Source: a virus
Lineage: Duplodnaviria; Heunggongvirae; Uroviricota; Caudoviricetes
IMG/VR virus record: IMGVR_UViG_3300010279_000462
DNA: 64,000 nucleotides
Strand: one strand, 5' to 3'
Made by a program: the position numbers and the translations under genes. Below are positions 3,717-26,448 of the stretch, piece after piece (within the stretch, counting starts at the first letter, position 1; each line of letters opens with the position of its first letter). Below the pieces are notes generated by a model, which made no database searches, was not told where the DNA came from, and was given only the letters and a program-made list of their open reading frames with translations.

Positions 3717-5089
3717 AGTTCATTCCGCATGATTACCAAAGCTACTGCACGGAGTACATCAAGACACACCCCGTCGCAGCTCTTTTTCTCGACATGGGAC
3801 TTGGCAAAACGGTCATTACTCTGACTGCCATCCAAGACCTCATGCTGGACACATTCGAGGTCAACAAGGTGCTGATCATTGCGCCGCTTCGTGTTGCCCG
3901 CGACACATGGCCGGCAGAAATTGAGAAGTGGGACCATCTGAAAAATCTGGACATTTCAATCGTCGTAGGCGATGTGAAGACACGCATTGCCGCTGTCCAT
4001 CACCCGGCCATGATCTATGTGGTCAACCGGGAAAATGTCAAATGGCTGGTGGAGTACTACGAGAAAAACGGGATGCGCTGGGACTTCAGCATGGTGGTCA
4101 TCGACGAGCTTTCGTCCTTCAAAAATTATCAGTCCCAGCGGTTCAAGTATCTGCGGAAAGTCCGACCCTTTGTGAAACGCTGGGTCGGGCTGACCGGCAC
4201 ACCGTCCTCCAACGGACTTATGGATCTCTGGGCCGAGATAGGAATTTTGGACGGTGGAGAGCGTTTGGGAAAGTTTATCGGTCGTTACCGTGAAGCCTAT
4301 TTCAAGGCATCGTCCATGAATCCGGCCAATGGTATCGTGTTCCAGTATAAGCCCAGAGAGGGAGCCGAGGAGCTAATCTACCAGAGAATCTCGGACATCA
4401 CCATTTCTATGAAGGCTCTGGACTACCTGCATATGCCGGACTGCATCCCGACCCGGTATGAGGTGGAGATGAACACGGAGGAGCGCAAGCTCTACGATAT
4501 GCTCAAGCAGGACCTTCTCATCCCGCTGAAGGATGGCGACATAGACGCTGCCAACGCTGCATCACTGACTGGAAAATTGTTGCAGATGAGCAATGGAGCT
4601 GTCTACGATGAGAACGGCAAAGCGAGAGTTCTGCATGACCACAAGCTGGAAGCTCTGGAGGACCTGATCGAAGCCGCCAATGGTCAGTCCGTTCTGGTGG
4701 CCTACTGGTTTAAGCATGACCGCCAGCGTATTATCGACCACCTGACAAAGCTGAAGATCCCGGTGAGGGACATCAAGACGAGCGAGGACATCAGGGACTG
4801 GAACGCCGGGAATGTCCCGGTCGCCCTGATCCATCCTGCCTCTGCCGGCCACGGTCTGAACATCCAGCAGGGCGGACACATCCTGATCTGGTTCGGGCTG
4901 ACATGGAGCCTCGAACTGTATCAGCAGACCAACGCCCGGCTTTGGCGACAGGGACAGACACAGGTGGTCACCATCCACCACATCATCACCAAGGACACGG
5001 TGGACGAGGATGTCATGGCCGCCCTTGAGCAGAAAGACATGACACAGGAGAAGCTGATTTCCGCCGTCAAAGCACGGCTGGAGGAATAG
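3713..5089 (+). CDS. SNF2-family DEAD/DEAH helicase
   Basis: Walker A DMGLGKT and DEAH-like VIDELSS are present. A C-terminal helicase domain is present. The VRR-NUC plus SNF2 pairing is common in phages. Confidence 0.85.
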   Translation: MKFIPHDYQSYCTEYIKTHPVAALFLDMGLGKTVITLTAIQDLMLDTFEVNKVLIIAPLRVARDTWPAEIEKWDHLKNLDISIVVGDVKTRIAAVHHPAMIYVVNRENVKWLVEYYEKNGMRWDFSMVVIDELSSFKNYQSQRFKYLRKVRPFVKRWVGLTGTPSSNGLMDLWAEIGILDGGERLGKFIGRYREAYFKASSMNPANGIVFQYKPREGAEELIYQRISDITISMKALDYLHMPDCIPTRYEVEMNTEERKLYDMLKQDLLIPLKDGDIDAANAASLTGKLLQMSNGAVYDENGKARVLHDHKLEALEDLIEAANGQSVLVAYWFKHDRQRIIDHLTKLKIPVRDIKTSEDIRDWNAGNVPVALIHPASAGHGLNIQQGGHILIWFGLTWSLELYQQTNARLWRQGQTQVVTIHHIITKDTVDEDVMAALEQKDMTQEKLISAVKARLEE

Positions 5090-5119
5090 CTCTCACCCTG
5101 AATAATAGGAGTAAGCAAT

Positions 5120-5836
5120 ATGAGCAAGATTCTATTTCTGAACGAAACCGACCGAAACGCATCGTATAAGACGGAGTACCGATATAAGACCGCCAAGCCG
5201 GTGAAGGCAGCCAAACCCAAGCGGGATGATGCCGGCTTCATCATCCCTTACGCAATGTTCCGTCCCATCCGGGAGCTGGGTCTGATCTGCGAGCTGCTGG
5301 GGGACACCCCGGTGCGCCGCAGTGCCGACCTCAAGATGAACCTTGACTATCTGATGAAGGAAGCCTACGAACACGCCATCGAGCAGATCATGTGCGGTGT
5401 CCGCTTGCAGGAGGTCCGCTGCCAGATGCAGTTCAATGCGGAAGACCGGGCATGGGAGCATTACACCCGGCTGCGGGAGAAGGGGCAGTACGCAGTCATG
5501 CCTTCGGTCACGGTGGAGGAACGCCGCCGGGTCATCCTTGGCGCGATCACTTGGAAGTATGACTGGATTCAGAAGCACAAGAAGTGGTGCTTCCAGTTCG
5601 CCGATGCGGTCATCACAAGAGAGAAGAACGGCGGCACGGAGAGCTGGAGCCAGTCCCAGTTCATTGAGAAGTTCATTCAGGTCGCAGATTCTCTGCCGGA
5701 AGCCAACCGACGACTGCTTGACCAACTGTACGAGACGGCTTGGGAGGTTATCCAGATTTATCGGTACGATGCTGATCCCTGCCAAGTGCCGGCTCCCTGG
5801 TATGACAAGAAGGAGGAAAACGATGCAGCAGAGTAA
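5120..5836 (+). CDS. hypothetical phage protein
   Basis: 238-aa ORF with good coding density. No recognisable motif. Confidence 0.5.
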   Translation: MSKILFLNETDRNASYKTEYRYKTAKPVKAAKPKRDDAGFIIPYAMFRPIRELGLICELLGDTPVRRSADLKMNLDYLMKEAYEHAIEQIMCGVRLQEVRCQMQFNAEDRAWEHYTRLREKGQYAVMPSVTVEERRRVILGAITWKYDWIQKHKKWCFQFADAVITREKNGGTESWSQSQFIEKFIQVADSLPEANRRLLDQLYETAWEVIQIYRYDADPCQVPAPWYDKKEENDAAE

Positions 5837-6212
5837 CACATTGCCGGCAGTTAAGAGCTTGTCGGAAGTTAAGACCTTGCCGGCAGCCAAGACCCCGTCG
5901 GCAGATAAGACTTTCCAGCCGCAGGAGAACCCTGAATGCTACGAGAACCTGGCGAATGCCATTGTCTTGCAGGCGTTCAAGGACTATAAGCGCGCACTGT
6001 GGAAGCTGTCACATGATCCGTATGACATTGACGCCGCAAGAAATAAGAAGAAGCTGGATCGTTTCTTCGATTCCAACTGGTATCGGCTGCTCACGGATGT
6101 GGATGCCGCTATTCTGGTGGGAGAAGCAAAGCGTCAGGTAGAGGACAGGTACGAGAAGCAGCAGAGGGCGATCCAGAGGTCGCGGGCGAGAAGAGCTGCC
6201 TTTGCCATGTAA
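5823..6212 (+). CDS. hypothetical phage protein
   Basis: Starts MQQSNT with RBS AGGAGGAAAACG upstream. It sits in the long ORF 5397-6212 but in the frame that follows the 5120-5836 gene. Confidence 0.45.
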   Translation: MQQSNTLPAVKSLSEVKTLPAAKTPSADKTFQPQENPECYENLANAIVLQAFKDYKRALWKLSHDPYDIDAARNKKKLDRFFDSNWYRLLTDVDAAILVGEAKRQVEDRYEKQQRAIQRSRARRAAFAM

Positions 6213-6243
6213 AACAAAGTCGGTCAGGAAGGAGGGCTTGACC

Positions 6244-6792
6244 ATGAACGAGGAAGCAAGCAACGCACAGGAAATCACAAAATCCGAACACTACATGGAA
6301 AAAGCCAGAGAACTGGCCGATTCCTATCCGCGTCTTCTGGAAAAGCGGCGGGAGCTGAAAGAGCAGATCGATGAATCTGCTGCTTGGCTGTACACACGGG
6401 ACGAGGTCATCTACAAGCTGTCGCAGGGTGCGCATGAGCAAGGTGAGCGCGTCAAGACAAGCGGCACTTCCAACCCGGTGGAGCGCACGGTCCTCAACTG
6501 CGACAAGGTGATGGCCTCCATGAACCGGGAAATCCTGAAACAGCGGGACGCCGAGCTGATGGAGCCGTACCGCCGAGTCTGCGAGGACATCGAGTTGTTT
6601 GAAATCGGCTTGCGCAGTCTGAAAGGGCAGACCCGGCAGGTTGCTCAGGAACTTTTCGTGCAGCGGAAAGCCATCCCTGCCGTGACGGATGCTGTCGGCA
6701 AACCCATCGGCCGAAAGACCGTGGAGGCTGAACGGGAGAGGGCACTTGCCGGCATTGCTAAGACCTTGGAACGATTGGAGGTGGCAGTTTGA
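6244..6792 (+). CDS. hypothetical phage protein
   Basis: Starts MNEEAS with RBS GGAAGGAGGG. 183 aa. Confidence 0.5.
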   Translation: MNEEASNAQEITKSEHYMEKARELADSYPRLLEKRRELKEQIDESAAWLYTRDEVIYKLSQGAHEQGERVKTSGTSNPVERTVLNCDKVMASMNREILKQRDAELMEPYRRVCEDIELFEIGLRSLKGQTRQVAQELFVQRKAIPAVTDAVGKPIGRKTVEAERERALAGIAKTLERLEVAV

Positions 6793-7241
6793 AAAACACA
6801 GAGGAAGTCACAGAGGAGATGAGCCGTCTGGTCATCTCGCTGTGCGATAAATACCGCAGGATTTACACGGAGGAGCTGAAAGCCAAGGCGGAACTTCACG
6901 ACTATGCAAAGTCCTCAGCGGAGGCGGTCTATCCCAAGGAAAAGGAAATGTACGAGAAGCTCTCCGCCGATGCTTCTACACGGTGTCTGATGGCCTATCA
7001 GTGGCGGCGGGACTTCAACATTGCCTTGCAGAAGGTGGAACCGCTCAAGGCAAGGCTGGTGCTGGAGCAGCACTTGATCCACGGAATGCCCCTGAAAGCC
7101 ATTGTCGGTGATCGTGGCAAAACCATGGGAAGAACCACTGCATCGCGCTACAAGCAGATCGGAATCTGGGCTTTTGCCGGGGAACTGGAGAAGATTCTCC
7201 CGGAGCTGGACAACAAGGAAAAATATATCTACGAAAAGTGA
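6789..7241 (+). CDS. putative phage transcriptional regulator (ArpU/sigma-region-4-like HTH)
   Basis: 150 aa. C-terminal HTH-like segment LKAIVGDRGKTMGRTTASRYKQ. Located at the end of the early operon. Assignment is tentative. Confidence 0.4.
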   Translation: MKNTEEVTEEMSRLVISLCDKYRRIYTEELKAKAELHDYAKSSAEAVYPKEKEMYEKLSADASTRCLMAYQWRRDFNIALQKVEPLKARLVLEQHLIHGMPLKAIVGDRGKTMGRTTASRYKQIGIWAFAGELEKILPELDNKEKYIYEK

Positions 7242-7291
7242 ACACTTTGGGTCAATGTGGAACGTCAAAGGAACACTTTGGAACATTTTTC

Positions 7292-7323
7292 TTGTTTACG
7301 GTACGTCTGCTTTTTGCTATAAT
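7292..7323 (+). promoter_or_regulatory. putative sigma70-like promoter (TTGTTT ... TATAAT)
   Basis: -10 TATAAT at 7318-7323 with a -35-like TTGTTTAC upstream. Spacing is slightly long. Confidence 0.3.
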
Positions 7324-7355
7324 TTATACTGGAAAAGCTGGATAGAGAGCGATGT

Positions 7356-7394
7356 GCCGAAGCGGTCAGATGTGACCTCGCTTCGGCTTTTTTG
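7356..7394 (+). terminator. rho-independent terminator-like hairpin
   Basis: GCCGAAGCG...CGCTTCGGC stem followed by TTTTTTG. Confidence 0.5.
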
Positions 7395-7520
7395 TTCTCC
7401 TTTTCTCCATTTACGAACATGAATTCCCATATGAATTCTCCATTTTCCGCTATCTATCCGGCTTTCTTTTACATCACAAATCCTCTCTACGAATCCCATC
7501 CACGAAAGAGGTGAACAGAA

Positions 7521-8120
7521 ATGGGTCGAAAGAATAAGAATGGGCGTCCGAAGCCCCATGTGAATAAGTACATCAACCAGAAAGGCAAGCTGCTCAAGAA
7601 GCAACCGTCGCTCAAGAAACGAATGCTCCCTCGCAAGGAGCGCAGCACACTGAAGGCGGAGGCAGAGATTATCTCTAAGGTGACCGCTCCTGCGCCGCAG
7701 TCGGTACGCCGGTTTGAGATCTGGTTTGCCGAGCTTGGCAACCATTACGGCAGCTCCGTGCAGAGCGGCAGCCGTCCGGTGCTGGTCATGAGCAATGATG
7801 TGGCAAACCACTACTCCAGCACCTTGACGGTGATCCCGATGACCACCGTGATGAAAAAGCTGGAACTGCCCACGCACATCCCGGTGTCGGAGGCGGATTG
7901 CCAGATGTACGGCAGCCACACCTATCTGCGGGAGTCTATCGCTCTGGCAGAACAGGTCACGACCATCGACAAGAAAGCCCTGCGCAATGTCCTGTGCCGA
8001 GTGACCTCTGCCGAAAAGCAGAAGGAAATCGAGCAGGCACTTGCGGGCTTCTTCAATATGGCTGCTGCGAACACAGTGGCACCTGATACCACTACCAACG
8101 AGGAGGCGAGAACATGGTAG
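7521..8120 (+). CDS. MazF/PemK-fold toxin-like protein with Lys/Arg-rich N-terminal extension
   Basis: Core FEIWFAELGNHYGSSVQSGSRPVLVMSNDVANHYSSTLTVIPMTT...LPTHIPV matches the PemK/MazF pattern. There is an N-terminal ~60-aa basic extension. RBS AAGAGGTGA. Confidence 0.65.
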   Translation: MGRKNKNGRPKPHVNKYINQKGKLLKKQPSLKKRMLPRKERSTLKAEAEIISKVTAPAPQSVRRFEIWFAELGNHYGSSVQSGSRPVLVMSNDVANHYSSTLTVIPMTTVMKKLELPTHIPVSEADCQMYGSHTYLRESIALAEQVTTIDKKALRNVLCRVTSAEKQKEIEQALAGFFNMAAANTVAPDTTTNEEARTW

Positions 8121-10516
8121 ACATCAAGAACATCCCGGTCAAGCTGAAAAATGACTGCCGGTTCTGCGTCTGGAAGTTTGAGAAGCGCAGCGGGCAGAAA
8201 ACCAAGATGCCGTATAACCCGGCAACCTCAGAACGCGCCAAAATCAACGACCTGCGCACCTTTGCGGATTTCAAGACCACCCTGATGACCTATGCGATGG
8301 GCGGTTTTGACGGCATCGGCATTGCGGTCGGCAACGGCATCGGCGCATTCGATATCGACCATTGCATTCGAGAGGACGGTACGCTGAATGACACAGCGGC
8401 GACCGTCCTTTCTATTTTCCCCTCGGCATATGTGGAGAAGTCTCCGTCCGGCCAAGGACTGCGCGGCTTCTTCTGTGTGCCGGAAGACTATGTTTTCGAT
8501 AAGACGGTCTATTACATCAACAATCGGAGCAAAGGGCTGGAAGTGTATATGCCCGGTGCGACAAACCGCTTCGTCACCGTGACGGGAGATGTTTACCGCA
8601 CAGGCGAGATTCCCAATGACCCGGAAGCCATGACCACGCTGCTTGATTCGCTGATGAAGCGGTCGAAGCAGGTGCAGAACAATCAGCTGCGCCACCACTC
8701 CTACCTGAGCGACGATGCGGTCATTGCACACGCAGAGGAAGCCGGCAACAGTGATAAGTTCAAAAAGCTGTATGCCGGTGACTGGCAGGAGCTTTATGAC
8801 AGTCAGTCTGACGCAGATATGGCAATGCTGTCTATTCTGGCTTTCTGGTGCGGGTGTGATGAGGAACAGATGGACCGCATCTTCCGCACCTCCGGCTTGA
8901 TGCGTGACAAGTGGGATCGCAAACAGGCCGGAACGACCTATGGTGCAATCTCCATCCGAAACGCTGTCAACACGGCGACTTCTGTCTATGTGCCGGTCAA
9001 CGCACAGGATATCGTGGACGAGGAGTTTTCCAATCTCGACCCGGAAGCAAAAAGTCCAGAGTATCAGCCGGATATCTCCAAGCTGACCCTGTCTCTGGAG
9101 GAGATGGCTCCGCACACGAACCCCCGCTATGGCAGAGATGAGATCGGTATGGGCAATATGTTCGCCGATTTCTTCAAGCCAATTGCCCGATACAACAGTG
9201 AGCGCGGCATCTGGTATGTCTATGACGGGAAAGTCTGGCAGCCGGATATGGAAAACCTCAAAGTTGCAGAGCTGGCAAAGCTGCTGGCGGACAAGCTGTA
9301 TGTGTTCGCCTTGACGATCACAGAGGAGGACACCAGAAAACGGTTCATCGACCGAGTGAAAAAGCTCCAGCTGCGCAAACACCGGGAGACGATGCTGAAA
9401 GATGCGAAGTCTGTGTTCCCTCTGTCCATGCGCAGTTTCGACAGCGATATTTACCTGTTCAACTGTCAGAACGGAACGCTTGATCTGCGCACGATGGAAT
9501 TTCGGGAACACCGCCCGGAGGACTATCTCACAAAGGTCTCCCCGGCTGTGTATGACCCGGAAGCGGACTGCCCGCGTTGGCGAACCTTTATTTCGGAGAT
9601 CATGCAGGACGACAAGGCGAGAGCAGACTATCTGCAGAAAGCCATCGGCTACGCTTTGACCGGCGACACACGAATGGAGTGCTTGTTCATCCTGTACGGC
9701 CCGACTTCCCGAAACGGTAAAGGCACGACGATGGAGAGCATCCTGCGCATCATGGGAGAGTACGGCAAGAACGCTGACCCGACCATGCTGCAAGCGAAGT
9801 TCAATGCACAGAGCGGCGGCCCTTCTGAGGAAATCGCGCGTCTTGCCGGCGCACGGTTCGTCAACATCTCGGAGCCTGCAAAGAAACTGACAATCGATGC
9901 GGCTTTGACTAAACGACTGACCGGCAACGATACAATCACGGCCCGGTATCTGCATGAGAACAGCTTCGAGTTTCGTCCGAACTTCAAAATCTTCATCAAT
10001 ACCAACCACCGTCCGAATATCACGGACCTTACGCTGTTCGATTCAGGTCGAATCAAGATTATCCCTTTTGACCGGCATTTCAGCGAGAGCGAGCAGGATA
10101 AGGACCTGAAGACCACATTTGCAAAGCCAGATAATATGTCCGGCATTCTGAACTGGATGCTGGAAGGCTACAGGCTGTTCCGCAGCCAAGGACTGGAAAT
10201 GCCGGACTCTGTCATCAATGCGACTGAGGACTACCGCAAGGCATCGGATAAGATCGCACAGTTCTGCGAAGCGTGTCTGGTGTCAAAGCCGGGGTCTATG
10301 CTGCGAAGTAAATCGGTTTACAACCGATACAGGCAGTGGAGCGAGGCCAATGGTTACCACGCGGAAGGTGTAAAAGGCTTCAAAGAGGAATTCAAGAAAC
10401 ACTACAAGGAAGATCGCCGCAGACCCAGTGATGGTGGGGAGAAAACCACGGTGGTTCTTGATGTGGACTTTTTGGTGGACGATGATGATCCACCTCCTGA
10501 AATTATCCCTGTATGA
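8114..10516 (+). CDS. primase-polymerase / P4-family primase with C-terminal SF3-type helicase
   Basis: N-terminal prim-pol-like DGIGIAVGNGIGAFDIDHC. C-terminal Walker A ILYGPTSRNGKGTT typical of the phage/plasmid primase P4 C-terminal domain. Confidence 0.85.
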   Translation: MVDIKNIPVKLKNDCRFCVWKFEKRSGQKTKMPYNPATSERAKINDLRTFADFKTTLMTYAMGGFDGIGIAVGNGIGAFDIDHCIREDGTLNDTAATVLSIFPSAYVEKSPSGQGLRGFFCVPEDYVFDKTVYYINNRSKGLEVYMPGATNRFVTVTGDVYRTGEIPNDPEAMTTLLDSLMKRSKQVQNNQLRHHSYLSDDAVIAHAEEAGNSDKFKKLYAGDWQELYDSQSDADMAMLSILAFWCGCDEEQMDRIFRTSGLMRDKWDRKQAGTTYGAISIRNAVNTATSVYVPVNAQDIVDEEFSNLDPEAKSPEYQPDISKLTLSLEEMAPHTNPRYGRDEIGMGNMFADFFKPIARYNSERGIWYVYDGKVWQPDMENLKVAELAKLLADKLYVFALTITEEDTRKRFIDRVKKLQLRKHRETMLKDAKSVFPLSMRSFDSDIYLFNCQNGTLDLRTMEFREHRPEDYLTKVSPAVYDPEADCPRWRTFISEIMQDDKARADYLQKAIGYALTGDTRMECLFILYGPTSRNGKGTTMESILRIMGEYGKNADPTMLQAKFNAQSGGPSEEIARLAGARFVNISEPAKKLTIDAALTKRLTGNDTITARYLHENSFEFRPNFKIFINTNHRPNITDLTLFDSGRIKIIPFDRHFSESEQDKDLKTTFAKPDNMSGILNWMLEGYRLFRSQGLEMPDSVINATEDYRKASDKIAQFCEACLVSKPGSMLRSKSVYNRYRQWSEANGYHAEGVKGFKEEFKKHYKEDRRRPSDGGEKTTVVLDVDFLVDDDDPPPEIIPV

Positions 10517-10560
10517 TCTGACTTATGCCATAGTGCTTGCCACACAGTGAAAGCATGAAA

Positions 10561-10601
10561 AGCCTGAAAAACCGCGTAATTACAGCGTTTTCAGGCTTTT
10601 T
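10561..10601 (+). terminator. rho-independent terminator
   Basis: AGCCTGAAAA...TTTTCAGGCT 10-bp stem followed by TTTT, directly after the primase gene. Confidence 0.7.
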
Positions 10602-11003
10602 GAAAGCGACTGGGGCAGTTGGGGCAACGAAAAACGGTTATTCTTATTATTACTTTCTTTTATATGTATTTTATATTTTATCTGCCACATCTGCCCCAAA
10701 AGATAAAAATAGAAAAATCAGAAAAGAAAAAAGAACGGAATATCAAGAAAAATAAGGGCTTTGAGGGCTGAAAATGTATTTTCAATGCAAAATGAGTTCT
10801 GCCACAGCCTGCCACAATCTTTGTGAGCCTATGGGTGTGCAGGGCTTTACAGAAATACGGCACTGCCTTTCAAGAATATGCCCGATGTTTTACAGGAACA
10901 CGGCATTTTACAGGAACACGGCAGGCAGTCTTTGTGGGAGCCCATATTTGTGGGCAAGGGCAAAGTCGGCCTGTTTTGTGATACATGAGAGAGGAGAACA
11001 ACT

Positions 11004-11456
11004 ATGTCGAAGAACAACCATGAAGATTTTTTGGGATGTCATACTCGCGGATATGAGGACATCAAGCTGCTGAAAATTTATCCGCTTCCGCCTGACACAA
11101 CCGTGATGGTCGTGGACACGGACAAGGACGACAATGTCGTGATGCGTGACTGTGTTGAAACCGGTAACTCCTACTGTCTGGCGTTGGTGGAGGAAAATGG
11201 CGAGAGGGCAGTTTATCCGTTTGCTCTGTCAACCATCTACGGCGTGGACTTGAGAGCGACAGTAATTCCCATTCGTCGTTGCCCCAGGTGTGGCAAACGG
11301 CTGCGTCCTCACATGGAGGAGGGCGATACCGGCACGTTGTACTACACCTGCAATCGCTGTGGTCATCGGGAGGAGAGTTGGCTGGACGCTGAGGAGCTGG
11401 ATAAACCCGAAGAATCCTGTGGCAGCTTTTTGGAGGAGGATGAAATCTATGAGTAA
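11004..11456 (+). CDS. hypothetical zinc-ribbon protein
   Basis: CPRCG...CNRCG zinc ribbon. Follows an AT-rich intergenic region. Confidence 0.5.
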   Translation: MSKNNHEDFLGCHTRGYEDIKLLKIYPLPPDTTVMVVDTDKDDNVVMRDCVETGNSYCLALVEENGERAVYPFALSTIYGVDLRATVIPIRRCPRCGKRLRPHMEEGDTGTLYYTCNRCGHREESWLDAEELDKPEESCGSFLEEDEIYE

Positions 11457-12516
11457 AATCATCACCTGTGAACAGGTCAGCAACGGTCACCCGGACAAAA
11501 TCTGTGACCAGATTGCGGATGCCATTGTGACCGACATCCTCCAGCACGACAGGAACGCCCGTGTGGCAATTGAGTGTCTGCTGAAGAAGAACCAGCTCTT
11601 TATCGCCGGCGAGGTCACGACCGACTACCAGCCCAACTACCACCAGCTCGTCCACAATGTGCTCACCGGCATCGGCACCGACAAGCTGGGCTTTGATTTC
11701 AGTGACCTGCTGCGCATCGGCATTCTGGTGGACAAGCAGTCGCCGGACATCGCACTCGGTGTGGATAGGGGCGGCGCCGGTGACCAGGGCATCATGTACG
11801 GCTACGCCACCAACGAAACGGCGGAGCAGATGCCGATTCCCTATATGGTCGCCACCAAGTTCCTGCAACTGCTGAAGGCACACCCCAGCAAGATGTTCCG
11901 TGCAGATGCCAAGGCGCAGGTCAGCTACGACTATGACACTGGCCGGATCACCACCTTCCTCTGCTCCGTGCAGCACAGCCCGGATGTAGAGGTCAGCGAC
12001 TTCCGCCATATCATCGAATCCATGATGGTGCTTGCCGCTTGTGAGTACGGACTGGATGGTGACTTCCAGAAGCTCGTCAATCCCACCGGCCGCTTCGTGC
12101 TGGGCGGCAGCTATGCAGACTGCGGTGTGACCGGTCGGAAGCTGGCGTGTGATACTTACGGCGGCATCGGTCGAATGGGTGGCGGCGCACTGTCCGGCAA
12201 AGACCCCACCAAAGTGGATCGCTCCGCTGCGTATATGGCACGGAAGATTGCCAAGGACATCGTGCAGGCCGGGTACGCTGACAAGTGCGAAGTCCAGCTG
12301 GCCTACGCCATCGGCGTGGTTCAGCCGGTGGGCGTATCGGTGGAGTGCTTCGGTACGGAGCATGAAGCCCCGGAGTTCATCGAAGCCTACGTCCGCGACA
12401 GCTACGACCTAACTCCGCAGGGCATCATCCAGCGGCTGGGTCTGCTGGATGTTGACTATAACAAGGTCAGCGCCTACGGTCACTTCGGCAAGCCTGGTCT
12501 GCCGTGGGAGGAATGA
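11449..12516 (+). CDS. metK: S-adenosylmethionine synthetase homolog, phage-encoded and compact (356 aa)
   Basis: Hallmark MetK motifs GHPDKICDQIADA, GAGDQGIMYGYA, GGGALSGKDPTKVDRSAAY. The ATG overlaps the upstream stop (ATGAGTAA). Confidence 0.85.
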   Translation: MSKIITCEQVSNGHPDKICDQIADAIVTDILQHDRNARVAIECLLKKNQLFIAGEVTTDYQPNYHQLVHNVLTGIGTDKLGFDFSDLLRIGILVDKQSPDIALGVDRGGAGDQGIMYGYATNETAEQMPIPYMVATKFLQLLKAHPSKMFRADAKAQVSYDYDTGRITTFLCSVQHSPDVEVSDFRHIIESMMVLAACEYGLDGDFQKLVNPTGRFVLGGSYADCGVTGRKLACDTYGGIGRMGGGALSGKDPTKVDRSAAYMARKIAKDIVQAGYADKCEVQLAYAIGVVQPVGVSVECFGTEHEAPEFIEAYVRDSYDLTPQGIIQRLGLLDVDYNKVSAYGHFGKPGLPWEE

Positions 12517-12519
12517 CCC

Positions 12520-12879
12520 GTGCCGCGCAGACCCAAGGTGCCGTGCAGACACCCCGGATGCCCGGAGCTGATTGAACCCGGCACTCTCTACTGTGAGAAG
12601 CACCTGCCCCTGCATCCAGAAGTGACGCGCCCTGCTGGGAAGCGGGGCTACACACGGCAGTGGCAAAAAATCAGCAAGGCGTATCTGCAAGCCCATCCAC
12701 TCTGCGCCGAGTGCATGAAGCAGGGCAGATACACGAAGGCCACCGTGGTAGACCACATCACACCGCACCGTGGAGATGCCAAACTTTTCTGGGACGAGAA
12801 TAATTGGCAGCCTCTTTGTAAGCGATGTCACGACCGGAAGACCTTCACCGAGGACATCAACCCGGTGTATCACTACTGA
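12520..12879 (+). CDS. HNH endonuclease
   Basis: CAEC...VDHITPHRGD...WQPLCKRCHDRKT is an HNH motif with zinc-binding cysteines. Confidence 0.85.
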   Translation: MPRRPKVPCRHPGCPELIEPGTLYCEKHLPLHPEVTRPAGKRGYTRQWQKISKAYLQAHPLCAECMKQGRYTKATVVDHITPHRGDAKLFWDENNWQPLCKRCHDRKTFTEDINPVYHY

Positions 12880-13280
12880 CACCCCGCCCCGGGGCCGGGG
12901 TTACTTCTCTACAGTGAAGTCACACGGAGACCGGTGGCCCCTTTCGTGTGAAAAAACGCAAAATTCATAGGCCGGGGGTCCCGGCAATATCGGCGCAAAA
13001 TGAACAGGGTGAATGCAGAGGCATCGGGGTTCCGGCTCCGGTGCCTTTCGTTTTCCCCGAAATGAACCAAAGCGTGTGAAAAACCTTGCAACACGGAACT
13101 TTTCATACGCTTTAGCTTGTTCCGGGAGGAACAGAGGCAGTTGAAAATCGGACGCCGCAAAAACAATGTAACCCGGCGGGGTAGGACCGATTTTCACTTT
13201 GCCTCTTTTCGTATGCTTTTTGAGATTTTTCACTGAAAACGCCATAGAAACGGCGAAAAATGAGGGGTAGGTGAGGATAG

Positions 13281-13583
13281 ATGCAGGATTACACAGCGGA
13301 AATGGTCAAGGACATGGCATTTGCCTTCTGTCCGCAGTGCGGAGCTGCCATCATTCCGAACCACCGGGGTAGACCACGGAAGTTCTGCTCCCCGGAATGC
13401 CGCTCCAAGTGGAACAACACTCATCCACGACCGCAGAACTGGAAGACCGTGCGGTCAAAGGTCTGCCCGGTGTGCGGCAGGGAGTTCTCCTACCGGCACC
13501 AGTACGGACTTCCGAGAAAATATTGCAGTCGTGCCTGTGCCAACACGGGCAGGGCGAAGGGAGAAAACAGAAATGGGGAATAA
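13281..13583 (+). CDS. hypothetical protein with duplicated zinc ribbons
   Basis: Two CPxCG...RKFCSxxCR / CPVCG...RKYCSRAC repeats. Confidence 0.5.
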   Translation: MQDYTAEMVKDMAFAFCPQCGAAIIPNHRGRPRKFCSPECRSKWNNTHPRPQNWKTVRSKVCPVCGREFSYRHQYGLPRKYCSRACANTGRAKGENRNGE

Positions 13584-13806
13584 GGTGATTGGCGTGTTCC
13601 CGATGTTCAACACCGGGGGCATCTGTGTACATGAGATTGACCACGCAGAGGACAAAATTCTTGCTTCCATGAACGGGGAGAACCCGGAGTGGTATCCGAT
13701 TACGGAAAAGCCGCAGTCGGAGATGGGCGGGGATGGCGATGACTTGGAGTCGGGCTTTTTGTTCGGCTCCTTTTTCGTGCCGTTCTCTGAGGTCATGCGC
13801 GTGTGA
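13573..13806 (+). CDS. small hypothetical protein
   Basis: 77-aa ORF that overlaps its neighbours at both ends. Confidence 0.35.
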   Translation: MGNKVIGVFPMFNTGGICVHEIDHAEDKILASMNGENPEWYPITEKPQSEMGGDGDDLESGFLFGSFFVPFSEVMRV

Positions 13807-15086
13807 AGGAGGACTACATGAAAGCAACCGCTGAACTGAAAATGCTGCCGGTATCTGTACTCAAGCCGGCCGCATACAATCCCCGGAAAAAGCTGAAGCC
13901 GGGGGATAAGGAGTACGAGAAGATCAAGAACTCCATCACGGAGTTCGGGTTTGCCGACCCGCTGGTGGTCAATGCCGATATGACAATTATCGGAGGACAC
14001 CAACGCCTGACTTGTGCGATTGATATGGGCTATACAGAAGTGCCTTGTGCGGTGGTGGACATCGACAAGACCAGAGAGAAAGCTCTGAACATTGCGCTCA
14101 ACAAAATCACGGGCGCGTGGGATGACACCCTGCTGGCCGACCTGCTCAAAGACATCGAAGAATCCAACTTCGATCTGGGCAAGACTGGATTTGAGCCGCC
14201 TGAAATCGAGACGCTGTTCAACAAGGTCCACAGCAAAGAAGTCAAGGAAGATGACTTTGATGTGGAGTCCGAGCTGAAGCAGCCGTGCTTCTCCAAAGCG
14301 GGCGACCTCTGGATGCTGGGCAAACACAGAGTTCTGTGCGGCGATTCCACCAAGGCAGAATGCTACGATACCCTGATGGACGGAGTAAAAGCCAACCTCG
14401 TGCTTTCGGACCCTCCGTACAATGTGGATGTGGAAGAAACGGCTGGCAAGATCATGAACGACAACATGGGCGACTCGGAATTTTACGAGTTCCTGCTGGC
14501 AGCGTTCAAGCAGATGCACGGACATCTGGCGGATGATGGCTCCATCTACATCTTCCATGCAGACACCGAAGGGCTGAACTTCCGAAAGGCATTCAAGGAT
14601 GCCGGGTTCTACTTGTCGGGGTGCTGCATCTGGAAGAAAAACGCACTGGTGCTGGGCCGCAGCCCTTACCAGTGGCAGCATGAGCCGTGCCTTTACGGGT
14701 GGAAGCAGAAAGGTAAGCACCAGTGGTATTCCGACCGCAAGCAGACGACAATCTGGGAGTACGACCGTCCGAAAGCCAATAAGGATCATCCGACCATGAA
14801 GCCCATTGGTTTGATGAGCTATCCTATCCGCAATTCCACCATGACCAACGGCATCGTCCTTGACCCGTTCCTCGGCAGTGGTTCGACCCTGATCGCCTGT
14901 GAGGAGACCGACCGCGTCTGCCGAGGTATTGAGCTGGACCCGAAGTTCGTGGATGTCATCGTGAAGCGGTATATCGAACACAGCGAAGGCCGCTATGAGG
15001 ATGTGTATGTCCTTCGGGATGGCCAGAAACTGAAGTTCGATGAGGTCGCTTCCTTTGAGCCGGAACAGGAGGCCGCAGATGGCTGA
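13803..15086 (+). CDS. ParB-like nuclease domain fused to an amino (N6-A/N4-C) DNA methyltransferase
   Basis: N-terminal ParB-N motif (PLVVNADMTIIGGHQRL). DPPYN (motif IV) precedes FLGSGST (motif I), which is the beta-class order. Confidence 0.85.
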   Translation: MKEDYMKATAELKMLPVSVLKPAAYNPRKKLKPGDKEYEKIKNSITEFGFADPLVVNADMTIIGGHQRLTCAIDMGYTEVPCAVVDIDKTREKALNIALNKITGAWDDTLLADLLKDIEESNFDLGKTGFEPPEIETLFNKVHSKEVKEDDFDVESELKQPCFSKAGDLWMLGKHRVLCGDSTKAECYDTLMDGVKANLVLSDPPYNVDVEETAGKIMNDNMGDSEFYEFLLAAFKQMHGHLADDGSIYIFHADTEGLNFRKAFKDAGFYLSGCCIWKKNALVLGRSPYQWQHEPCLYGWKQKGKHQWYSDRKQTTIWEYDRPKANKDHPTMKPIGLMSYPIRNSTMTNGIVLDPFLGSGSTLIACEETDRVCRGIELDPKFVDVIVKRYIEHSEGRYEDVYVLRDGQKLKFDEVASFEPEQEAADG

Positions 15087-15849
15087 TGCAAAATGTGTCC
15101 TCATCCACGATAACTTCCAGAACTTCAAGTCCTACAACATCCCCAAGGCACAGCTGGTGATCGCCGACATTCCGTACAACATCGGAACGGACTTCTACGC
15201 CAGCCGGCCGGACTGGTATGTGGGCGGGGACAACAAGAACGGCGAGAGCAATAAGGCACGGAAGGCGGCGTTCAATACCGACTTCACCTTCAACATCGCA
15301 GAGTACTTCCACTTCTGCAACCGGCTGCTGAAGAAGGAGCCGGCAACAGGAGAGAAGGGTGCGCCCTGTATGATCGTGTTCTGCGCGTTCCAGCAGATTC
15401 CGAAGGTCATCACCGAAGCGGAGAAGTACGGCTTCAAGAACTACATCCCGCTGACCTTCTGCAAGAACTACAGTCCGCAGGTCTTGAAGGCCAACATGAA
15501 GATCGTGGGTGCAACGGAGTATGCGCTGGTGCTGTACCGCAGCAAGCTTCCGAAGTTCCGCAACCTCGGCGAAGACGGCAAGCCCCACATGATCTTCAAC
15601 TGGTTCGACTGGAAGCGGGACGGCAAGGACTATCCGAAGATCCATCCTTCCCAGAAGCCAGTGTCCGTGCTGAAACGCCTGATTGAGATCTTCACCGACC
15701 CCGGCGATGTGGTCATTGACCCCTGCGCCGGAAGTGGCTCGACCCTTCGTGCTGCAAGAGAGCTGGGGCGGGATAGCTACGGATTTGAAGTGTCTAGAGA
15801 TTTCTACCTGAAAGCCAGGGAGCAGATGCTCGGAGAGGAGGCCGTATGA
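15079..15849 (+). CDS. DNA amino-methyltransferase (beta class)
   Basis: DIPYN motif IV and DPCAGSGSTL motif I. ATGGCTGA overlap with the upstream gene. Confidence 0.8.
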   Translation: MADAKCVLIHDNFQNFKSYNIPKAQLVIADIPYNIGTDFYASRPDWYVGGDNKNGESNKARKAAFNTDFTFNIAEYFHFCNRLLKKEPATGEKGAPCMIVFCAFQQIPKVITEAEKYGFKNYIPLTFCKNYSPQVLKANMKIVGATEYALVLYRSKLPKFRNLGEDGKPHMIFNWFDWKRDGKDYPKIHPSQKPVSVLKRLIEIFTDPGDVVIDPCAGSGSTLRAARELGRDSYGFEVSRDFYLKAREQMLGEEAV

Positions 15850-18183: not shown

Positions 18184-19443
18184 ATGGACAATTTTCTAAC
18201 TGAGACTTCTTCAGCGAAAGTTAAAGACACTCCTACAACTTATACCGTAAAGTCCTTGGTAGAGGACGCAACGACATTTCTTCAATCCAGGGGTGACTAC
18301 CGTGACCGCGTAGTGAACTATATCAAGGGAACATGGCATCAATTTGAAAATTACTGCGAAACCAATAGCATTTTATTCTACCAGTCTGAATACAGTAACA
18401 GATTCATTGAAAGCCTTTCTATTGGTTTACAGCCTCTCAAACCGGAAACCATTAAGCGTAAGGTGGGCAATCTTAAAATGCTCGACCTGTACGCAAAAAA
18501 TGGCACATGGGAGAAGGATGCATTAGATTCCAAACCTAACCTTGAAGCGGAATTTTCTGAATTCATCGCAGCACAGGATGAGTTCTTAAAAACACGTCAC
18601 TATTCGAAATTTTCTTGTGAAACCATTTGTAAACAGACAACAGCTGTACTGAATTATCTTCAGAATAATGAAATCACCAGTTTCTCGGAAATCACTAGTG
18701 ATATCATTTCTGACTATGCTATTTCACTGAAGGGTCATGCAAAAAGTACTATGCGCTGTGAACTCAGCCGAATTAGACAGATTTTGCATAATGCCTACCT
18801 TCTAAAGTATACCGCTGATGATTTGTCCACTTACGTCCCAACGTACAATCTTGGCCAACCCCAAAGCAATGTTAAAATATGGCATTCTAGCGAGATAAAC
18901 AGAGTTCTGTCTGCGGTGGATCGGTCAAATCCTAAAGGTTTGCGGGATGCCGCTTATATCACCATTGCAGCAGAACTTGGGATGCGAAGTAAGGACATTA
19001 CTGACCTTAAGCTTTCGGATATTGATTGGGAAACTTGCACTATCTCGTTTGTCCAGAGCAAAACCGGGAAAGTCAATCCCCTTCCGCTTAATGAAAAAAT
19101 TGGCCGCGCCATTATTGACTATCTGAAAGTCAGACCCGATACGGATTGTGAATACCTATTTGTGAATATGAATCCTCCGTATGGCAAAATGAAGTCGTTC
19201 AATTCATCATTTAACAAGTATGTCAGCCGCTCCGGAGTCACTATTCCTGTTAATGCTCACCATAATCTTCACTCGCTCCGGGCTACCGTTGCGACCAAAC
19301 TTTTGAAAGAGGGCGTATCTCCTGACGATATCGTTTCTTTTCTGGGGCATTCCGACAGGGAGTCGCTTCACAACTATATCCGTATGGATATAGACAGCCT
19401 CCGAAATTGTGCATTGTCTTTTGAGAATGGTGAGTTTGTATGA
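18184..19443 (+). CDS. ritA: tyrosine recombinase RitA-like
   Basis: 419 aa. RBS AGGTGAGG. Motifs HSLRAT...LGHSD...LHNY (R-H-R-Y). Confidence 0.8.
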   Translation: MDNFLTETSSAKVKDTPTTYTVKSLVEDATTFLQSRGDYRDRVVNYIKGTWHQFENYCETNSILFYQSEYSNRFIESLSIGLQPLKPETIKRKVGNLKMLDLYAKNGTWEKDALDSKPNLEAEFSEFIAAQDEFLKTRHYSKFSCETICKQTTAVLNYLQNNEITSFSEITSDIISDYAISLKGHAKSTMRCELSRIRQILHNAYLLKYTADDLSTYVPTYNLGQPQSNVKIWHSSEINRVLSAVDRSNPKGLRDAAYITIAAELGMRSKDITDLKLSDIDWETCTISFVQSKTGKVNPLPLNEKIGRAIIDYLKVRPDTDCEYLFVNMNPPYGKMKSFNSSFNKYVSRSGVTIPVNAHHNLHSLRATVATKLLKEGVSPDDIVSFLGHSDRESLHNYIRMDIDSLRNCALSFENGEFV

Positions 19444-23160: not shown

Positions 23161-23189
23161 TTGATATACACCCAACATGACGGTAATAT
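23161..23189 (+). promoter_or_regulatory. promoter cassette copy TTGATA-N17-TAATAT
   Basis: Exact 17-nt spacing. ATGTACA and TGTACACGATCA motifs lie upstream. Confidence 0.6.
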
Positions 23190-23236
23190 GCACATACCGC
23201 AAGGGGAACAGAACAAGACCAAAGGAGAAGAACACC

Positions 23237-24172: not shown

Positions 24173-24241
24173 GCGCAGGAAGTTCGGGCACCTATCGGGC
24201 GGGCAACCGCCCTTTAGGCGGTAGAAGGAGGCAGCAAAACC

Positions 24242-24472
24242 ATGAAAAATCAGACAACCGAAAAAGCACCCGGCAGAAGCTTTCGGGTGGTCATCACCGA
24301 GACGCTCAAGCGGGTGGTCGAGGTCAACGAAAGCGAACTCAAGGAACCCACAATGGACGAAGCCATCCAAACCGTCAGCGACTGGTGGCACAACGAGCAG
24401 ATTGTTCTGGAAGCAGAGGATTTCGATGGCGTGGAATTCACGCCCGCGGAGGGCGGTGGACAGGATGACTGA
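24242..24472 (+). CDS. small acidic hypothetical protein
   Basis: 76 aa. RBS AGGAGG. Lies between the amidoligase and GGCT genes. Confidence 0.45.
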   Translation: MKNQTTEKAPGRSFRVVITETLKRVVEVNESELKEPTMDEAIQTVSDWWHNEQIVLEAEDFDGVEFTPAEGGGQDD

Positions 24473-25001: not shown

Positions 25002-25059
25002 GTACAATATCCACGATCTTGTGAGGAAATCATTGTGCAGGATATGATGCACACCGGCC

Positions 25060-25090
25060 TTGCTATTTGAGCAAAACAGAGGCATATATA
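25060..25090 (+). promoter_or_regulatory. promoter cassette copy (TTGCTA ... ATATAT)
   Basis: CCGGCCTTGCTATTTGAGCAAAACAGAGGCATATATAG. Confidence 0.45.
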
Positions 25091-26439: not shown

Positions 26440-26448
26440 ATGCAAAAG

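What the first reader, a model, noticed from the sequence alone, without database searches (positions are those of the whole stretch)
7521..8120. Orphan MazF/PemK-fold protein with a Lys/Arg-rich N-terminal extension and no adjacent antitoxin
The C-terminal ~130 aa fit the PemK/MazF toxin fold (…FEIWFAELG…SGSRPVLVMSNDV…LTVIPMTT…). The first ~60 aa are highly basic (MGRKNKNGRPKPHVNKYINQKGKLLKKQPSLKKRMLPRKER). No antitoxin-like ORF lies upstream. Instead there is a promoter-like sequence, a terminator-like hairpin and tandem GAACACTTTGG repeats. It sits directly upstream of the primase. It could be an RNA-binding or ribonuclease factor used for host shutoff or an abortive-infection counter-measure rather than a canonical TA toxin.
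Basis: partly seen in the sequence, partly recalled or inferred. Interest (0 to 1): 0.55.

Follow-up and report, generated by a model that had tools for sequence, protein, structure and literature searches.

The report
Antitoxin-less phage MazF with basic tag
A gut prophage carries a MazF-type RNA-cutting toxin gene with no antidote gene. It sits immediately upstream of the replication primase and bears a conserved, strongly basic N-terminal tag shared by a large, undescribed clade of phage MazF proteins. Its function has not been tested.

Summary
ORF 7521-8120 (+, 199 aa) is a real gene with a strong RBS. Residues 61-180 are a confident MazF/PemK domain (Pfam E=1e-20; AF2 model matches B. subtilis MazF at TM 0.91). 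Residues 1-60 are very basic (net +15, pI 11.3). The stop codon overlaps the start of the primase-helicase gene.

The gene is not a canonical toxin-antitoxin toxin. No antitoxin-like domain turned up in 53 window ORFs scanned against Pfam. In 36 of 44 related viral contigs the gene lies in a gap of 300 nt or less between the SNF2 helicase and the primase, leaving no room for an antitoxin.

The N-terminal extension is not peculiar to this phage. 74 of the 148 closest 50%-identity cluster representatives carry M-G-R-K-N-[RK]-R-[KR]. In 70 it is the exact N-terminus; in 4 it follows an apparently miscalled start. A K-Y-I motif often follows, then a linker of variable length.

The catalytic Arg and Thr are conserved. 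The canonical loop Glu is replaced by Val/Ile/Leu in all 90 aligned sequences.

Best reading: a solitary, lytic-cycle MazF endoribonuclease of a temperate Heliusvirales-like phage, with an arginine-rich tether. This is a new variant of a known kind, and its function is inferred only.

The parts
7231..7281 (+). Two 20-nt direct repeats (ACGnnAAnGGAACACTTTGG) spaced 31 nt start to start. They lie upstream of the -35, and the first overlaps the stop codon of the upstream gene. Probably regulator binding sites.
   Evidence: family D2; exact GAACACTTTGG at 7240-7250 and 7271-7281. Partly conserved in L001/L004.
7295..7323 (+). Sigma-70-type promoter-like site: TTTACG, 17-nt spacer, TG-extended TATAAT.
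   Evidence: 10 of 12 matches plus TG; best in 5000-13500. The TGnTATAAT/TATACT element is conserved in six aligned loci.
7356..7393 (+). Intrinsic-terminator-like hairpin (9-bp GC-rich stem, 14-nt loop with an inner stem) followed by TTTTTT, about 30 nt downstream of the -10.
   Evidence: I2; dG -32 kcal/mol, z -4.5. A hairpin plus U-run with a different sequence occupies the same place in L006, L009 and L012 (z -6 to -8.3). The L001 fold was not significant (z -0.9).
7334..7465 (+). Long-range 18-nt inverted repeat that encloses the terminator hairpin in the 190-nt leader. UACAU lies at 7470-7474, just 3' of it.
   Evidence: I1, 89% complementary. (leader fold z -3.8). (TACAT positions).
7506..7513 (+). 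Ribosome-binding site AAGAGGTG, 7 nt before the ATG.
   Evidence: Equivalent GGAGGTGAA sites in relatives.
7521..7595 (+). Conserved N-terminal basic tag, residues 1-25 (MGRKNKNGRPKPHVNKYINQKGKLL); net charge +8.
   Evidence: Invariant G2 R3 N7 R9 H13 V14 N15 K16 Y17 I18 G22 in 53 sequences. M-[GP]-R-K-N-x-R is the exact N-terminus of 70 of 148 cluster representatives.
7596..7700 (+). Variable basic linker, residues 26-60. Predicted with low confidence and not conserved in sequence or length.
   Evidence: extension length 18-131 aa across the clade; pLDDT 56-69.
7701..8060 (+). MazF/PemK endoribonuclease domain, residues 61-180. Catalytic-equivalent R85 (7773-7775) and T108 (7842-7844); V80 occupies the position of the canonical loop Glu.
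8061..8120 (+). C-terminal tail and stop codon. The ...NEEARTW* end is constrained by the overlapping primase RBS (GAGGAGG, 8100-8106) and start codon (8114).
   Evidence: sequence. The C-terminal EARTW is conserved only where the overlap exists. The overlap or abutment recurs in L001, L009 and L012.
8114..10516 (+). Primase-helicase (NrS-1-like primase-polymerase HBD, D5_N, DUF5906, Pox_D5), translationally coupled to the MazF gene.
   Evidence: Pfam; phrog_1829, E=2e-171.
6789..7241 (+). Upstream 150-aa gene of unknown function (pI 8.7). Fast-evolving and replaceable; not antitoxin-like.
   Evidence: no family or PDB match. (about 30% identity in relatives; absent from L024/L026). Absent from most loci of the A5 subfamily.

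Best explanation
The gene encodes a solitary MazF-family endoribonuclease with no antitoxin. It belongs to the replication (early/middle) gene module of a temperate, Heliusvirales-like phage of gut Clostridia.

**Expression.** It is made only when the module is transcribed during lytic development. It shares an operon with the primase-helicase and is translationally coupled to it. In this sub-lineage a promoter is followed within about 30 nt by an intrinsic terminator. I infer that this keeps expression off unless a phage regulator activates transcription or allows read-through.

**Action.** The MazF domain is presumed to act as a dimer, as MazF proteins do. It would cut single-stranded RNA at a short sequence that is still unknown and probably not the UACAU of B. 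subtilis MazF. Its job would be to shut down or reprogram host and early-phage translation, in the way T4 uses RegB.

**N-terminal extension.** The conserved arginine/lysine-rich tag, joined through a disordered linker of variable length, most likely tethers the nuclease to RNA or the ribosome.

**Status of each step**
- Shown: MazF identity, conservation of the catalytic Arg/Thr, absence of an adjacent antitoxin, synteny, conservation of the tag, and the promoter/terminator layout.
- Inferred: RNase activity, timing of expression, the target, and the role of the tag.

**Confidence by step.** Solitary MazF-family protein in a phage replication module, about 0.9. Active RNase, about 0.65. Lytic-cycle shutoff or reprogramming role with the tag as a tether, about 0.4. 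The overall figure of 0.5 applies to the explanation as a whole.
For: - **MazF domain.** Pfam E=1e-20; PHROG 1936 'MazF-like growth inhibitor'; EndoA E=9e-16; AF2 plus Foldseek TM 0.91 to the B. subtilis MazF-RNA complex.
- **Active site across 90 diverse relatives.** R85 (=R25) in 87/90. T108 (=T48) in 86/90, with Ser in the other 4. N96 in 90/90. Q81, G83, P86, H119, E144 and Q145 each in at least 84/90. The role of R25/T48 is taken from PMC8634880, which cites Simanshu 2013.
- **No antitoxin.**
  - No antitoxin-type Pfam or PHROG domain in 53 window ORFs.
  - The small leader ORFs are not conserved and lack an RBS.
  - The four upstream genes are about 30-57% identical in relatives, and unrelated genes replace them in L024/L026.
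  - In 36 of 44 viral contigs the MazF ORF sits 300 nt or less after the last SNF2 match, usually about 100 nt. It is 21-128 nt before the primase in 40 of the 42 loci that have a primase match.
- **Fixed position.** The order SNF2 .. MazF .. primase .. SAM synthetase .. HNH .. methyltransferase holds in 14 metagenome loci and in genome contigs, including chromosomal scaffolds of Clostridium fessum, Faecalibacterium intestinale and Blautia faecis isolates.
- **Untagged relatives.** Untagged solitary MazF-like genes are annotated in the equivalent module of Heliusvirales phages and Streptococcus phage Javan405.
- **Temperate phage.** Serine recombinase, holin and endolysin at the right end. TerL is 76% identical to that of a Heliusvirales phage.
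- **Tag.** Invariant residues, synonymous codon variation, strict N-terminal position, variable linker. Within 79 sequences (78 loci plus the window) the motif was found only at MazF N-termini.
- **Promoter and structurally conserved hairpin with U-run**.
Against: - No experiment and no expression data are available.
- The residue at the position of the canonical loop Glu (E20 in B. subtilis, E24 in E. coli) is Val/Ile/Leu in all 90 relatives. Mutating that Glu abolishes activity in E. coli and D. audaxviator MazF (PMC8634880). Catalysis or specificity may therefore differ from studied MazFs.
- The B. subtilis site TACAT is not depleted in the window (31 observed, 39 expected). No self-protection signal supports a shutoff nuclease of that specificity.
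- AF2 gives only low confidence for residues 1-60, so the tag's partner is unknown.
- MazF is much more divergent (47-52%) than its flanking genes (74-94%). That could reflect an arms-race function such as anti-defence rather than housekeeping shutoff.
- A host-encoded or unrecognisable antitoxin cannot be excluded.
Confidence: 0.5

Rival explanations
1. It is an ordinary type II toxin whose antitoxin exists but was not recognised. Candidates are one of the fast-evolving upstream proteins (g182/g150), a protein encoded elsewhere in the prophage, or a host MazE that cross-neutralises it.
For: - A g182-like 162-aa gene lies directly upstream of the untagged MazF-like gene in Heliusvirales phages and Javan405, abutting or overlapping it.
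- g182 and g150 have no known family.
- They co-vary in divergence with MazF.
Against: - Most loci of the LGFNPxKYI-tag subfamily have only about 100 nt between SNF2 and MazF and no g182 or g150 match.
- L024/L026 carry unrelated genes there.
- In the window, a 280-bp promoter/terminator region separates g150 from MazF.
- No MazE, AbrB, RHH or PemI domain was found in 53 ORFs scanned.
Confidence: 0.12
2. The protein works with the replisome and is not an mRNA interferase. In this view a MazF/Kid-fold nucleic-acid-binding factor, tethered by its basic tag, modulates the primase-helicase or processes RNA at the origin.
For: - Every tagged MazF examined lies directly upstream of the primase-helicase, often with overlapping stop and start codons.
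- It occupies a fixed position in the replication module.
Against: - The RNase active-site residues are under strong purifying selection.
- From general knowledge of MazF chemistry, not checked here: cleavage leaves a 2',3'-cyclic phosphate, which cannot prime DNA synthesis.
- Untagged homologs in Heliusvirales phages are not adjacent to the primase.
- Adjacency may only reflect shared ancestry.
Confidence: 0.12
3. The N-terminal extension is a built-in control element that replaces the antitoxin. It would be either an autoinhibitory segment or a degradation signal that keeps the toxin short-lived or inactive until needed, making this a single-chain toxin-antitoxin.
For: - The tag is strictly N-terminal and conserved.
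- It occurs in MazFs that have no antitoxin gene.
- The linker is flexible and variable.
- From my own recollection, not checked here: fused toxin-antitoxins are known in other families, such as CapRel and EzeT.
Against: - From general knowledge, not checked here: MazE segments that block the MazF RNA groove are acidic.
- This tag has net charge +8 with no acidic residue, so it would not be expected to mimic RNA.
- Untagged solitary MazFs exist in sister phages, so a tag is not needed to do without an antitoxin.
- AF2 gives no confident docking.
Confidence: 0.1
4. It is a prophage-encoded defence (abortive infection or superinfection exclusion) toxin. It would be expressed or activated in lysogens when another phage infects.
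For: - The phage is temperate, and relatives occur on chromosomal scaffolds of isolate genomes.
- MazF is far more divergent than its neighbours, as expected for conflict genes.
- Surveys often interpret TA toxins on prophages as defence genes (PMC10858875).
Against: - The gene sits inside the replication operon and is translationally coupled to the primase. It is not in a moron or lysogeny region.
- No sensor or antitoxin partner was found.
- Homologs occur in a phage sampled from wastewater with no integrase nearby (Lactobacillus phage ATCCB, next to the DNA polymerase).
Confidence: 0.08
5. It is a type III-like system. The short RNA made from the upstream promoter and ended by the hairpin would act as an RNA antitoxin for the MazF-fold toxin, as ToxI does for ToxN.
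For: - The order promoter, then a roughly 60-nt hairpin-terminated RNA, then the toxin gene resembles the ToxIN layout.
- The leader is more structured than shuffled controls (z -3.8).
- UACAU occurs in all six aligned leaders.
Against: - The transcribed leader contains no tandem repeats. The GAACACTTTGG copies lie upstream of the promoter.
- No Rfam match.
- The whole element is absent from the large sister subfamily, where MazF directly follows SNF2.
- The toxin is PF02452, not a ToxN/AbiQ-family protein.
Confidence: 0.03

Closest known systems
Bacillus subtilis MazF (EndoA/YdcE) and Staphylococcus aureus MazF, the UACAU-specific type II toxins (PDB 4mdx, 1ne8, 4mzm)
   Same: - Same fold (TM 0.91, rmsd 1.8 A; about 32% identity over the structural alignment).
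- Same catalytic Arg and Thr, and the KLPTH and EQ.TID motifs.
   Different: - No mazE gene is present.
- It has a 60-aa basic N-terminal extension.
- The loop Glu (E20) is replaced by Val.
- It is encoded in a phage replication operon, not in a chromosomal two-gene operon.
PHROG 1936 / 35650 'MazF-like growth inhibitor', as annotated in Ca. Heliusvirales phages (Blautia, Clostridium and Evtepia phage NatCom) and Streptococcus phage Javan405
   Same: - Homologous domain (39-41% identity).
- Solitary.
- Same kind of module: SNF2 helicase upstream; SAM synthetase, HNH and methyltransferase downstream.
   Different: - Those proteins are 116-130 aa with no tag, and they are not adjacent to the primase.
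- The PHROG profiles do not cover the extension; the match starts at profile position 9.
- I found no functional study.
Myxococcus xanthus MazF-mx, a solitary MazF
   Same: It is a MazF-family nuclease with no cognate mazE gene (reviewed in PMC4803016, found).
   Different: - From my recollection, not checked here: MazF-mx is chromosomal, developmental, and neutralised by the regulator MrpC.
- It has no N-terminal tag and no phage context.
Phage T4 RegB endoribonuclease
   Same: This is a functional analogy, drawn from my own knowledge and not tested here. RegB is a phage-encoded, sequence-specific RNase with a TA-toxin-like fold and no antitoxin. It is made early and inactivates mRNAs.
   Different: - Different fold family (RelE/YoeB-like, not MazF).
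- No sequence relationship.
- Different host phylum.
ToxN (type III toxin, Kid/MazF-like fold) with ToxI RNA
   Same: The toxin gene is preceded by a promoter and a terminator.
   Different: - There is no repeat array in the transcript.
- The toxin belongs to a different family.
- The element is missing in the sister lineage.

Membership tests
PemK/MazF toxin family (Pfam PF02452) | Sequence match to the family profile above the curated threshold | tested here: met
   74.5 bits against a cutoff of 23.1, E=9.8e-21, profile positions 1-108 of 109.
PemK/MazF toxin family (Pfam PF02452) | SH3-like barrel fold of MazF/Kid | tested here: met
   AF2 pLDDT >93 for residues 61-180. Foldseek finds 4mdx_A at TM 0.91, rmsd 1.8 A, E=1e-11.
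PemK/MazF toxin family (Pfam PF02452) | Catalytic Arg (R25 in B. subtilis, R29 in E. coli) and Thr (T48/T52) | tested here: met
   R85 and T108 align to R25 and T48. R is present in 87/90 relatives and T/S in 90/90.
PemK/MazF toxin family (Pfam PF02452) | Acidic residue in the beta1-beta2 loop (E20 in B. subtilis, E24 in E. coli), which is needed for activity in studied MazFs | tested here: not met
   Val80 occupies this position, and V/I/L is found in 90/90 relatives. Importance of the Glu: PMC8634880.
PemK/MazF toxin family (Pfam PF02452) | Sequence-specific endoribonuclease activity as a homodimer | not testable with these tools
   Requires biochemistry.
Type II mazEF/pemIK toxin-antitoxin module | Adjacent, co-transcribed antitoxin gene (MazE/PemI; AbrB/SpoVT or RHH type), normally upstream | tested here: not met
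   No such domain in the neighbours or in 53 window ORFs. Most relatives have about 100 nt upstream and 21-128 nt downstream.
Type II mazEF/pemIK toxin-antitoxin module | Neutralisation of the toxin by direct binding of a labile protein antitoxin | not testable with these tools
   A host-encoded or unrecognised partner cannot be excluded.
Type III toxin-antitoxin (ToxIN-like) | Tandem RNA repeats transcribed upstream of the toxin and separated from it by a terminator | tested here: not met
   There are only two spaced DNA repeats, and they lie upstream of the promoter. No Rfam match. The element is absent in the sister subfamily.
Ca. Heliusvirales-type phage (context of the gene) | TerL related to Heliusvirales, and a replication module with SNF2, SAM synthetase, HNH and DNA methyltransferases | tested here: met
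   TerL is 76% identical to that of Clostridium phage NatCom_42228. Module similarity. No formal TerL phylogeny was done.

The most novel reading that the evidence does not exclude
The MGRKN..KYI-tagged proteins would be a distinct class of single-gene, antitoxin-free MazF nucleases that act as core components of the replication module of one of the most prevalent gut phage lineages. The N-terminal arginine-rich tag would be the built-in control or targeting element. It could bind a specific RNA, the ribosome or the replisome, or set the protein's lifetime. It would thereby do the job that the antitoxin does in classical systems. That would make this a phage-domesticated toxin with a new mode of regulation.
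Probability: 0.2. Interest if true: 0.7.

Novelty: new variant of a known kind. Interest (0 to 1): 0.5.

Why it matters
**Why this case is informative.** MazF/PemK is among the toxin domains most often annotated in gut phage genomes (PMC10858875), and it is usually filed as a TA or 'growth inhibitor' gene. In this lineage it has no antitoxin and sits at a fixed position in the replication module. It also carries a conserved tag that no database family describes. These phages infect Faecalibacterium, Blautia, Clostridium and Lawsonibacter, and individual protein clusters hold hundreds to more than a thousand member sequences.

**What would follow if the protein is active.**
- It would show how temperate phages of dominant gut Firmicutes reprogram host RNA.
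- It would show how a toxin can be kept safe without an antitoxin.
- The clade would be a source of new sequence-specific RNases with a possibly altered recognition loop.

Tried and rejected
**Structure**
- The AF2 run on a shallow 53-sequence alignment gave pLDDT 46 and was useless. A 90-sequence alignment built from cluster representatives fixed the domain but not the N-terminus.

**Homology searches**
- The second homolog search, with the alignment, returned the same top 120 proteins and added nothing.
- The third homolog search used only the tag. It collected 26 candidates and returned one truncated 57-aa protein. Whether the tag occurs on non-MazF proteins in public data therefore remains open.
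- A degenerate DNA scan for MGRKN.R in viral contigs returned a single locus.
- Within the loci already fetched, the tag is found only on MazF.
- No Pfam or PDB match exists for the tag peptides.

**Self-avoidance of the B. subtilis site**
- TACAT is not depleted. The strongly depleted 5-mers are palindromic restriction-type sites.

**Leader region**
- Rfam finds nothing there.
- I rejected a leader-peptide or small antitoxin ORF. The 40-aa ORF at 7392-7514 has no RBS, starts inside the terminator, and is not conserved.
- I rejected an internal start at GTG codon 54, which has no RBS while the upstream peptide is conserved.

**Upstream proteins**
- g150 and g182 gave no PDB, Pfam or PHROG assignment.
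- My impression that their C-termini resemble sigma-factor region 4 comes from reading the sequence only and is unverified.

**Literature**
- Searches found only catalogue-level mentions of phage MazF/PemK.
Full report
**1. The observation**

ORF 7521-8120 (+) encodes 199 aa. The ATG sits 7 nt after AAGAGGTG (7506-7513). Neither the internal GTG at codon 54 nor the 40-aa ORF in the leader has a ribosome-binding site.

Residues 63-177 match Pfam PemK_toxin (E=9.8e-21, 74.5 bits against a cutoff of 23.1) and PHROG 1936 'MazF-like growth inhibitor'. The closest solved relatives are B. subtilis EndoA/MazF and S. aureus MazF (E about 1e-15).

An AlphaFold2 model built on 90 diverse relatives has pLDDT >93 for residues 61-180 and 56-70 for residues 1-60. 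It superposes on the B. subtilis MazF-RNA complex 4mdx_A at TM 0.91 and rmsd 1.8 A.

Residues 1-60 contain 18 Lys/Arg against 3 Asp/Glu (pI 11.25). The MazF domain is neutral, with pI 6.9.

The stop codon overlaps the start of an 800-aa primase-helicase (ATGGTAG at 8114-8120; NrS-1-like HBD, D5_N, DUF5906, Pox_D5). The primase RBS, GAGGAGG (8100-8106), lies inside the last MazF codons. This explains why the C-terminal ...EARTW is conserved among close relatives.

**2. The upstream region**

The 280-bp intergenic region contains these elements:

| Element | Coordinates | Evidence |
|---|---|---|
| Two exact GAACACTTTGG copies, 31 nt apart, within 20-nt repeats | 7231-7281 | |
| Best sigma-70-like promoter in 8.5 kb (TTTACG-17-TGnTATAAT) | 7295-7323 | |
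| GC-rich hairpin followed by T6 | 7356-7393 | |
| Structured leader of about 190 nt (z -3.8) | 7328-7525 | |

- The repeats are not tandem and lie upstream of the -35.
- In the five other loci aligned with the window, the extended -10 and the about 25 nt after it are the best-conserved non-coding bases.
- L006, L009 and L012 each have a strong hairpin plus U-run at the same place, with a different sequence (z -6 to -8.3). The L001 fold was not significant (z -0.9).
- Rfam has no match.
- The small ORFs in the leader are not conserved.

**3. The phage**

- All genes in the window are on the + strand.
- TerL (32750-34375) is 76% identical to that of Clostridium phage NatCom_42228, a Ca. Heliusvirales phage.
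- The replication module matches Heliusvirales-type phages and related prophages gene for gene.
- A holin, an endolysin and a serine recombinase lie at the right end.
- Relatives sit on large chromosomal scaffolds of Clostridium fessum, Faecalibacterium intestinale and Blautia faecis isolates.
- I conclude that the element is a temperate phage or prophage of gut Clostridia.

**4. No antitoxin**

Pfam and PHROG scans of 53 window ORFs, including all neighbours of the gene, found no MazE/PemI, AbrB/SpoVT, RHH or other antitoxin-type domain.

Comparative evidence is stronger.
- In 14 metagenome loci with MazF 46-64% identical, the order is conserved: SNF2, four unknown genes, intergenic region, MazF, primase, SAM synthetase, HNH, ParB-methyltransferase.
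- Against the relatives found in genome contigs, identities to the window genes are as follows:

| Gene | Identity to window |
|---|---|
| DUF932 | 93-94% |
| metK | 92-95% in full-length matches |
| SNF2 | 90-92% |
| primase | 74-90% |
| MazF | 47-52% |
| g182 | 55-59% |
| g129 | 50-56% |
| g238 | 42-53% |
| g150 | 29-37% |

- In L024 and L026, unrelated genes replace the four upstream genes.
- For the second tag subfamily I compared 44 viral contigs.
  - In 36 of them, the MazF ORF starts 300 nt or less after the last SNF2 match, usually about 100 nt.
  - In 40 of the 42 that have a primase match, MazF ends 21-128 nt before the primase.
  - Neither gap can hold an antitoxin gene.
- Untagged MazF-like genes of 116-130 aa, also without an annotated antitoxin, occupy the equivalent module in reference Heliusvirales phages, Streptococcus phage Javan405 and Lactobacillus phage ATCCB.

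**5. The N-terminal extension is a conserved tag**

Within the close family, G2 R3 N7 R9 H13 V14 N15 K16 Y17 I18 G22 are invariant. Residues 26-60 vary in sequence and length.

A profile search of 1.84 billion cluster representatives gave 6712 hits. I examined the 148 closest representatives that were not already in hand.
- 70 begin exactly with M-[GP]-R-K-N-[RKN]-R-[KR]-[KR].
- 4 more carry the motif after an apparently miscalled start.
- Among the 70, the extension is 18-131 aa long.
- 40 of the 70 also have a [KR]-[YW]-[ILVMTA] motif, seen as IHVNKYI or LGFNPxKYI.

Codons for the tag vary synonymously between lineages, and every start is preceded by a strong RBS. The peptide itself is therefore under selection.

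In 79 sequences (78 loci plus the window), the motif occurred 46 times at MazF N-termini. The eight other regex hits looked spurious. No Pfam family or PDB chain matches the tag. Every tagged MazF I examined lies directly upstream of the primase-helicase.

**6. The active site**

Across 90 diverse relatives:

| Window residue | B. subtilis equivalent | Conservation |
|---|---|---|
| R85 | R25 | 87/90 |
| T108 | T48 | 86/90 Thr, 4/90 Ser |
| N96 | N36 | 90/90 |
| Q81, G83, P86, H119, E144, Q145 | various | each at least 84/90 |
| V80 | E20 (E24 in E. coli) | V/I/L in 90/90 |

R25 and T48 contact the substrate RNA, and mutating them abolishes toxicity (PMC8634880, citing Simanshu 2013).

The Glu missing at position 80 is needed for activity in E. 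coli and D. audaxviator MazF (PMC8634880). The clade thus has a distinctive [TS]-S-[VIL]-Q loop. An active RNase remains the most likely reading, but specificity and perhaps mechanism may differ from studied MazFs.

The B. subtilis site TACAT is not depleted in the window (31 observed, 39 expected).

**7. Interpretation**

I read this as a phage-domesticated, solitary MazF nuclease.
- It is expressed with the replication genes during lytic growth and is translationally coupled to the primase.
- In this sub-lineage it lies behind a promoter-proximal terminator. That terminator would limit leakage in lysogens.
- Its arginine-rich N-terminal tag on a flexible linker would tether it to RNA or the ribosome.
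- The nearest functional analogy is T4 RegB, which I cite from my own knowledge.

The rivals are, in descending order of my confidence:
- an unrecognised or host-encoded antitoxin;
- a replisome-associated role;
- the extension acting as a built-in inhibitor or degron;
- a prophage defence toxin;
- a type III-like RNA antitoxin.

None of these is excluded by experiment. The comparative data argue against the first and the last.

**8. Novelty**

Phage MazF/PemK genes are already catalogued (PHROG 1936; PMC6507118; PMC10858875; PMC12323421). I found no functional study of them. The Heliusvirales paper and the GuFi-phage preprint do not mention the gene.

The following features do not appear to have been described:
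- the conserved N-terminal tag;
- the Glu-less loop found throughout the clade;
- the fixed position next to the primase, without an antitoxin.

I rate this a new variant of a known kind and of moderate interest. What is firmly established is identity and context, not function.

Noticed in passing
window 18184-21436: Three tandem, overlapping tyrosine-recombinase genes (419, 326 and 344 aa; Phage_integrase domains) lie inside the phage genome. They sit between the methyltransferases and a modification cassette. A serine recombinase is also present at 62759-63781. This may be an inserted recombinase-trio element.
   Followed up: no
window 23177-30059: A cluster that resembles a nucleotide/DNA hypermodification module: Amidoligase_2 (23177-24172), two GGACT/AIG2-like proteins (24402-25001 and 25060-25626), DUF4314, DUF3846 and Nmad4 (29688-30059). 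A SAM synthetase and three DNA methyltransferase genes (one fused to ParB) lie upstream at 11290-18047.
   Followed up: no
whole window: CCWGG and GGWCC are strongly under-represented. CCTGG is 18 observed against 90 expected, CCAGG 11 against 57, GGACC 39 against 120, and GGTCC 28 against 76. This is consistent with restriction-site avoidance.
   Followed up: no
window 7295-7395, and the equivalent region of L001, L004, L006, L009, L012: - A conserved TG-extended -10 promoter is followed within about 30 nt by a hairpin plus U-run.
- It lies directly downstream of the fast-evolving g150 gene.
- The layout recalls lambda Q / PR' / tR' antitermination control and may gate the whole downstream operon.
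- The 25 nt after the -10 (TTTATACTGGAAAAGCTGGATAGAGA) are the most conserved non-coding bases.
   Followed up: partly
window 7470-7474; leaders of L001, L004, L006, L009, L012: UACAU, the B. subtilis/S. aureus MazF cleavage site, occurs in the leader upstream of the MazF gene in all six aligned loci. My rough estimate of the chance of this, over about three independent lineages, is about 0.02. It may be a coincidence or an autoregulatory cleavage site.
   Followed up: partly
window 5120-7241 versus L018-L026: The block of four unknown genes plus MazF is a hypervariable island (29-59% identity, or replaced outright). It lies between highly conserved SNF2 (90-92%) and primase/metK (74-95%).
   Followed up: partly
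window 30805-32022: An AAA_14 / DUF4143 ATPase gene lies immediately upstream of the small terminase subunit (32271-32750).
   Followed up: no
window 10517-11290: About 770 bp between the primase and the SAM synthetase contains only weak ORFs. One is a 150-aa zinc-ribbon-like ORF (11004-11456) that is conserved in L019 and L022. Relatives have a 270-600 bp gap here.
   Followed up: no
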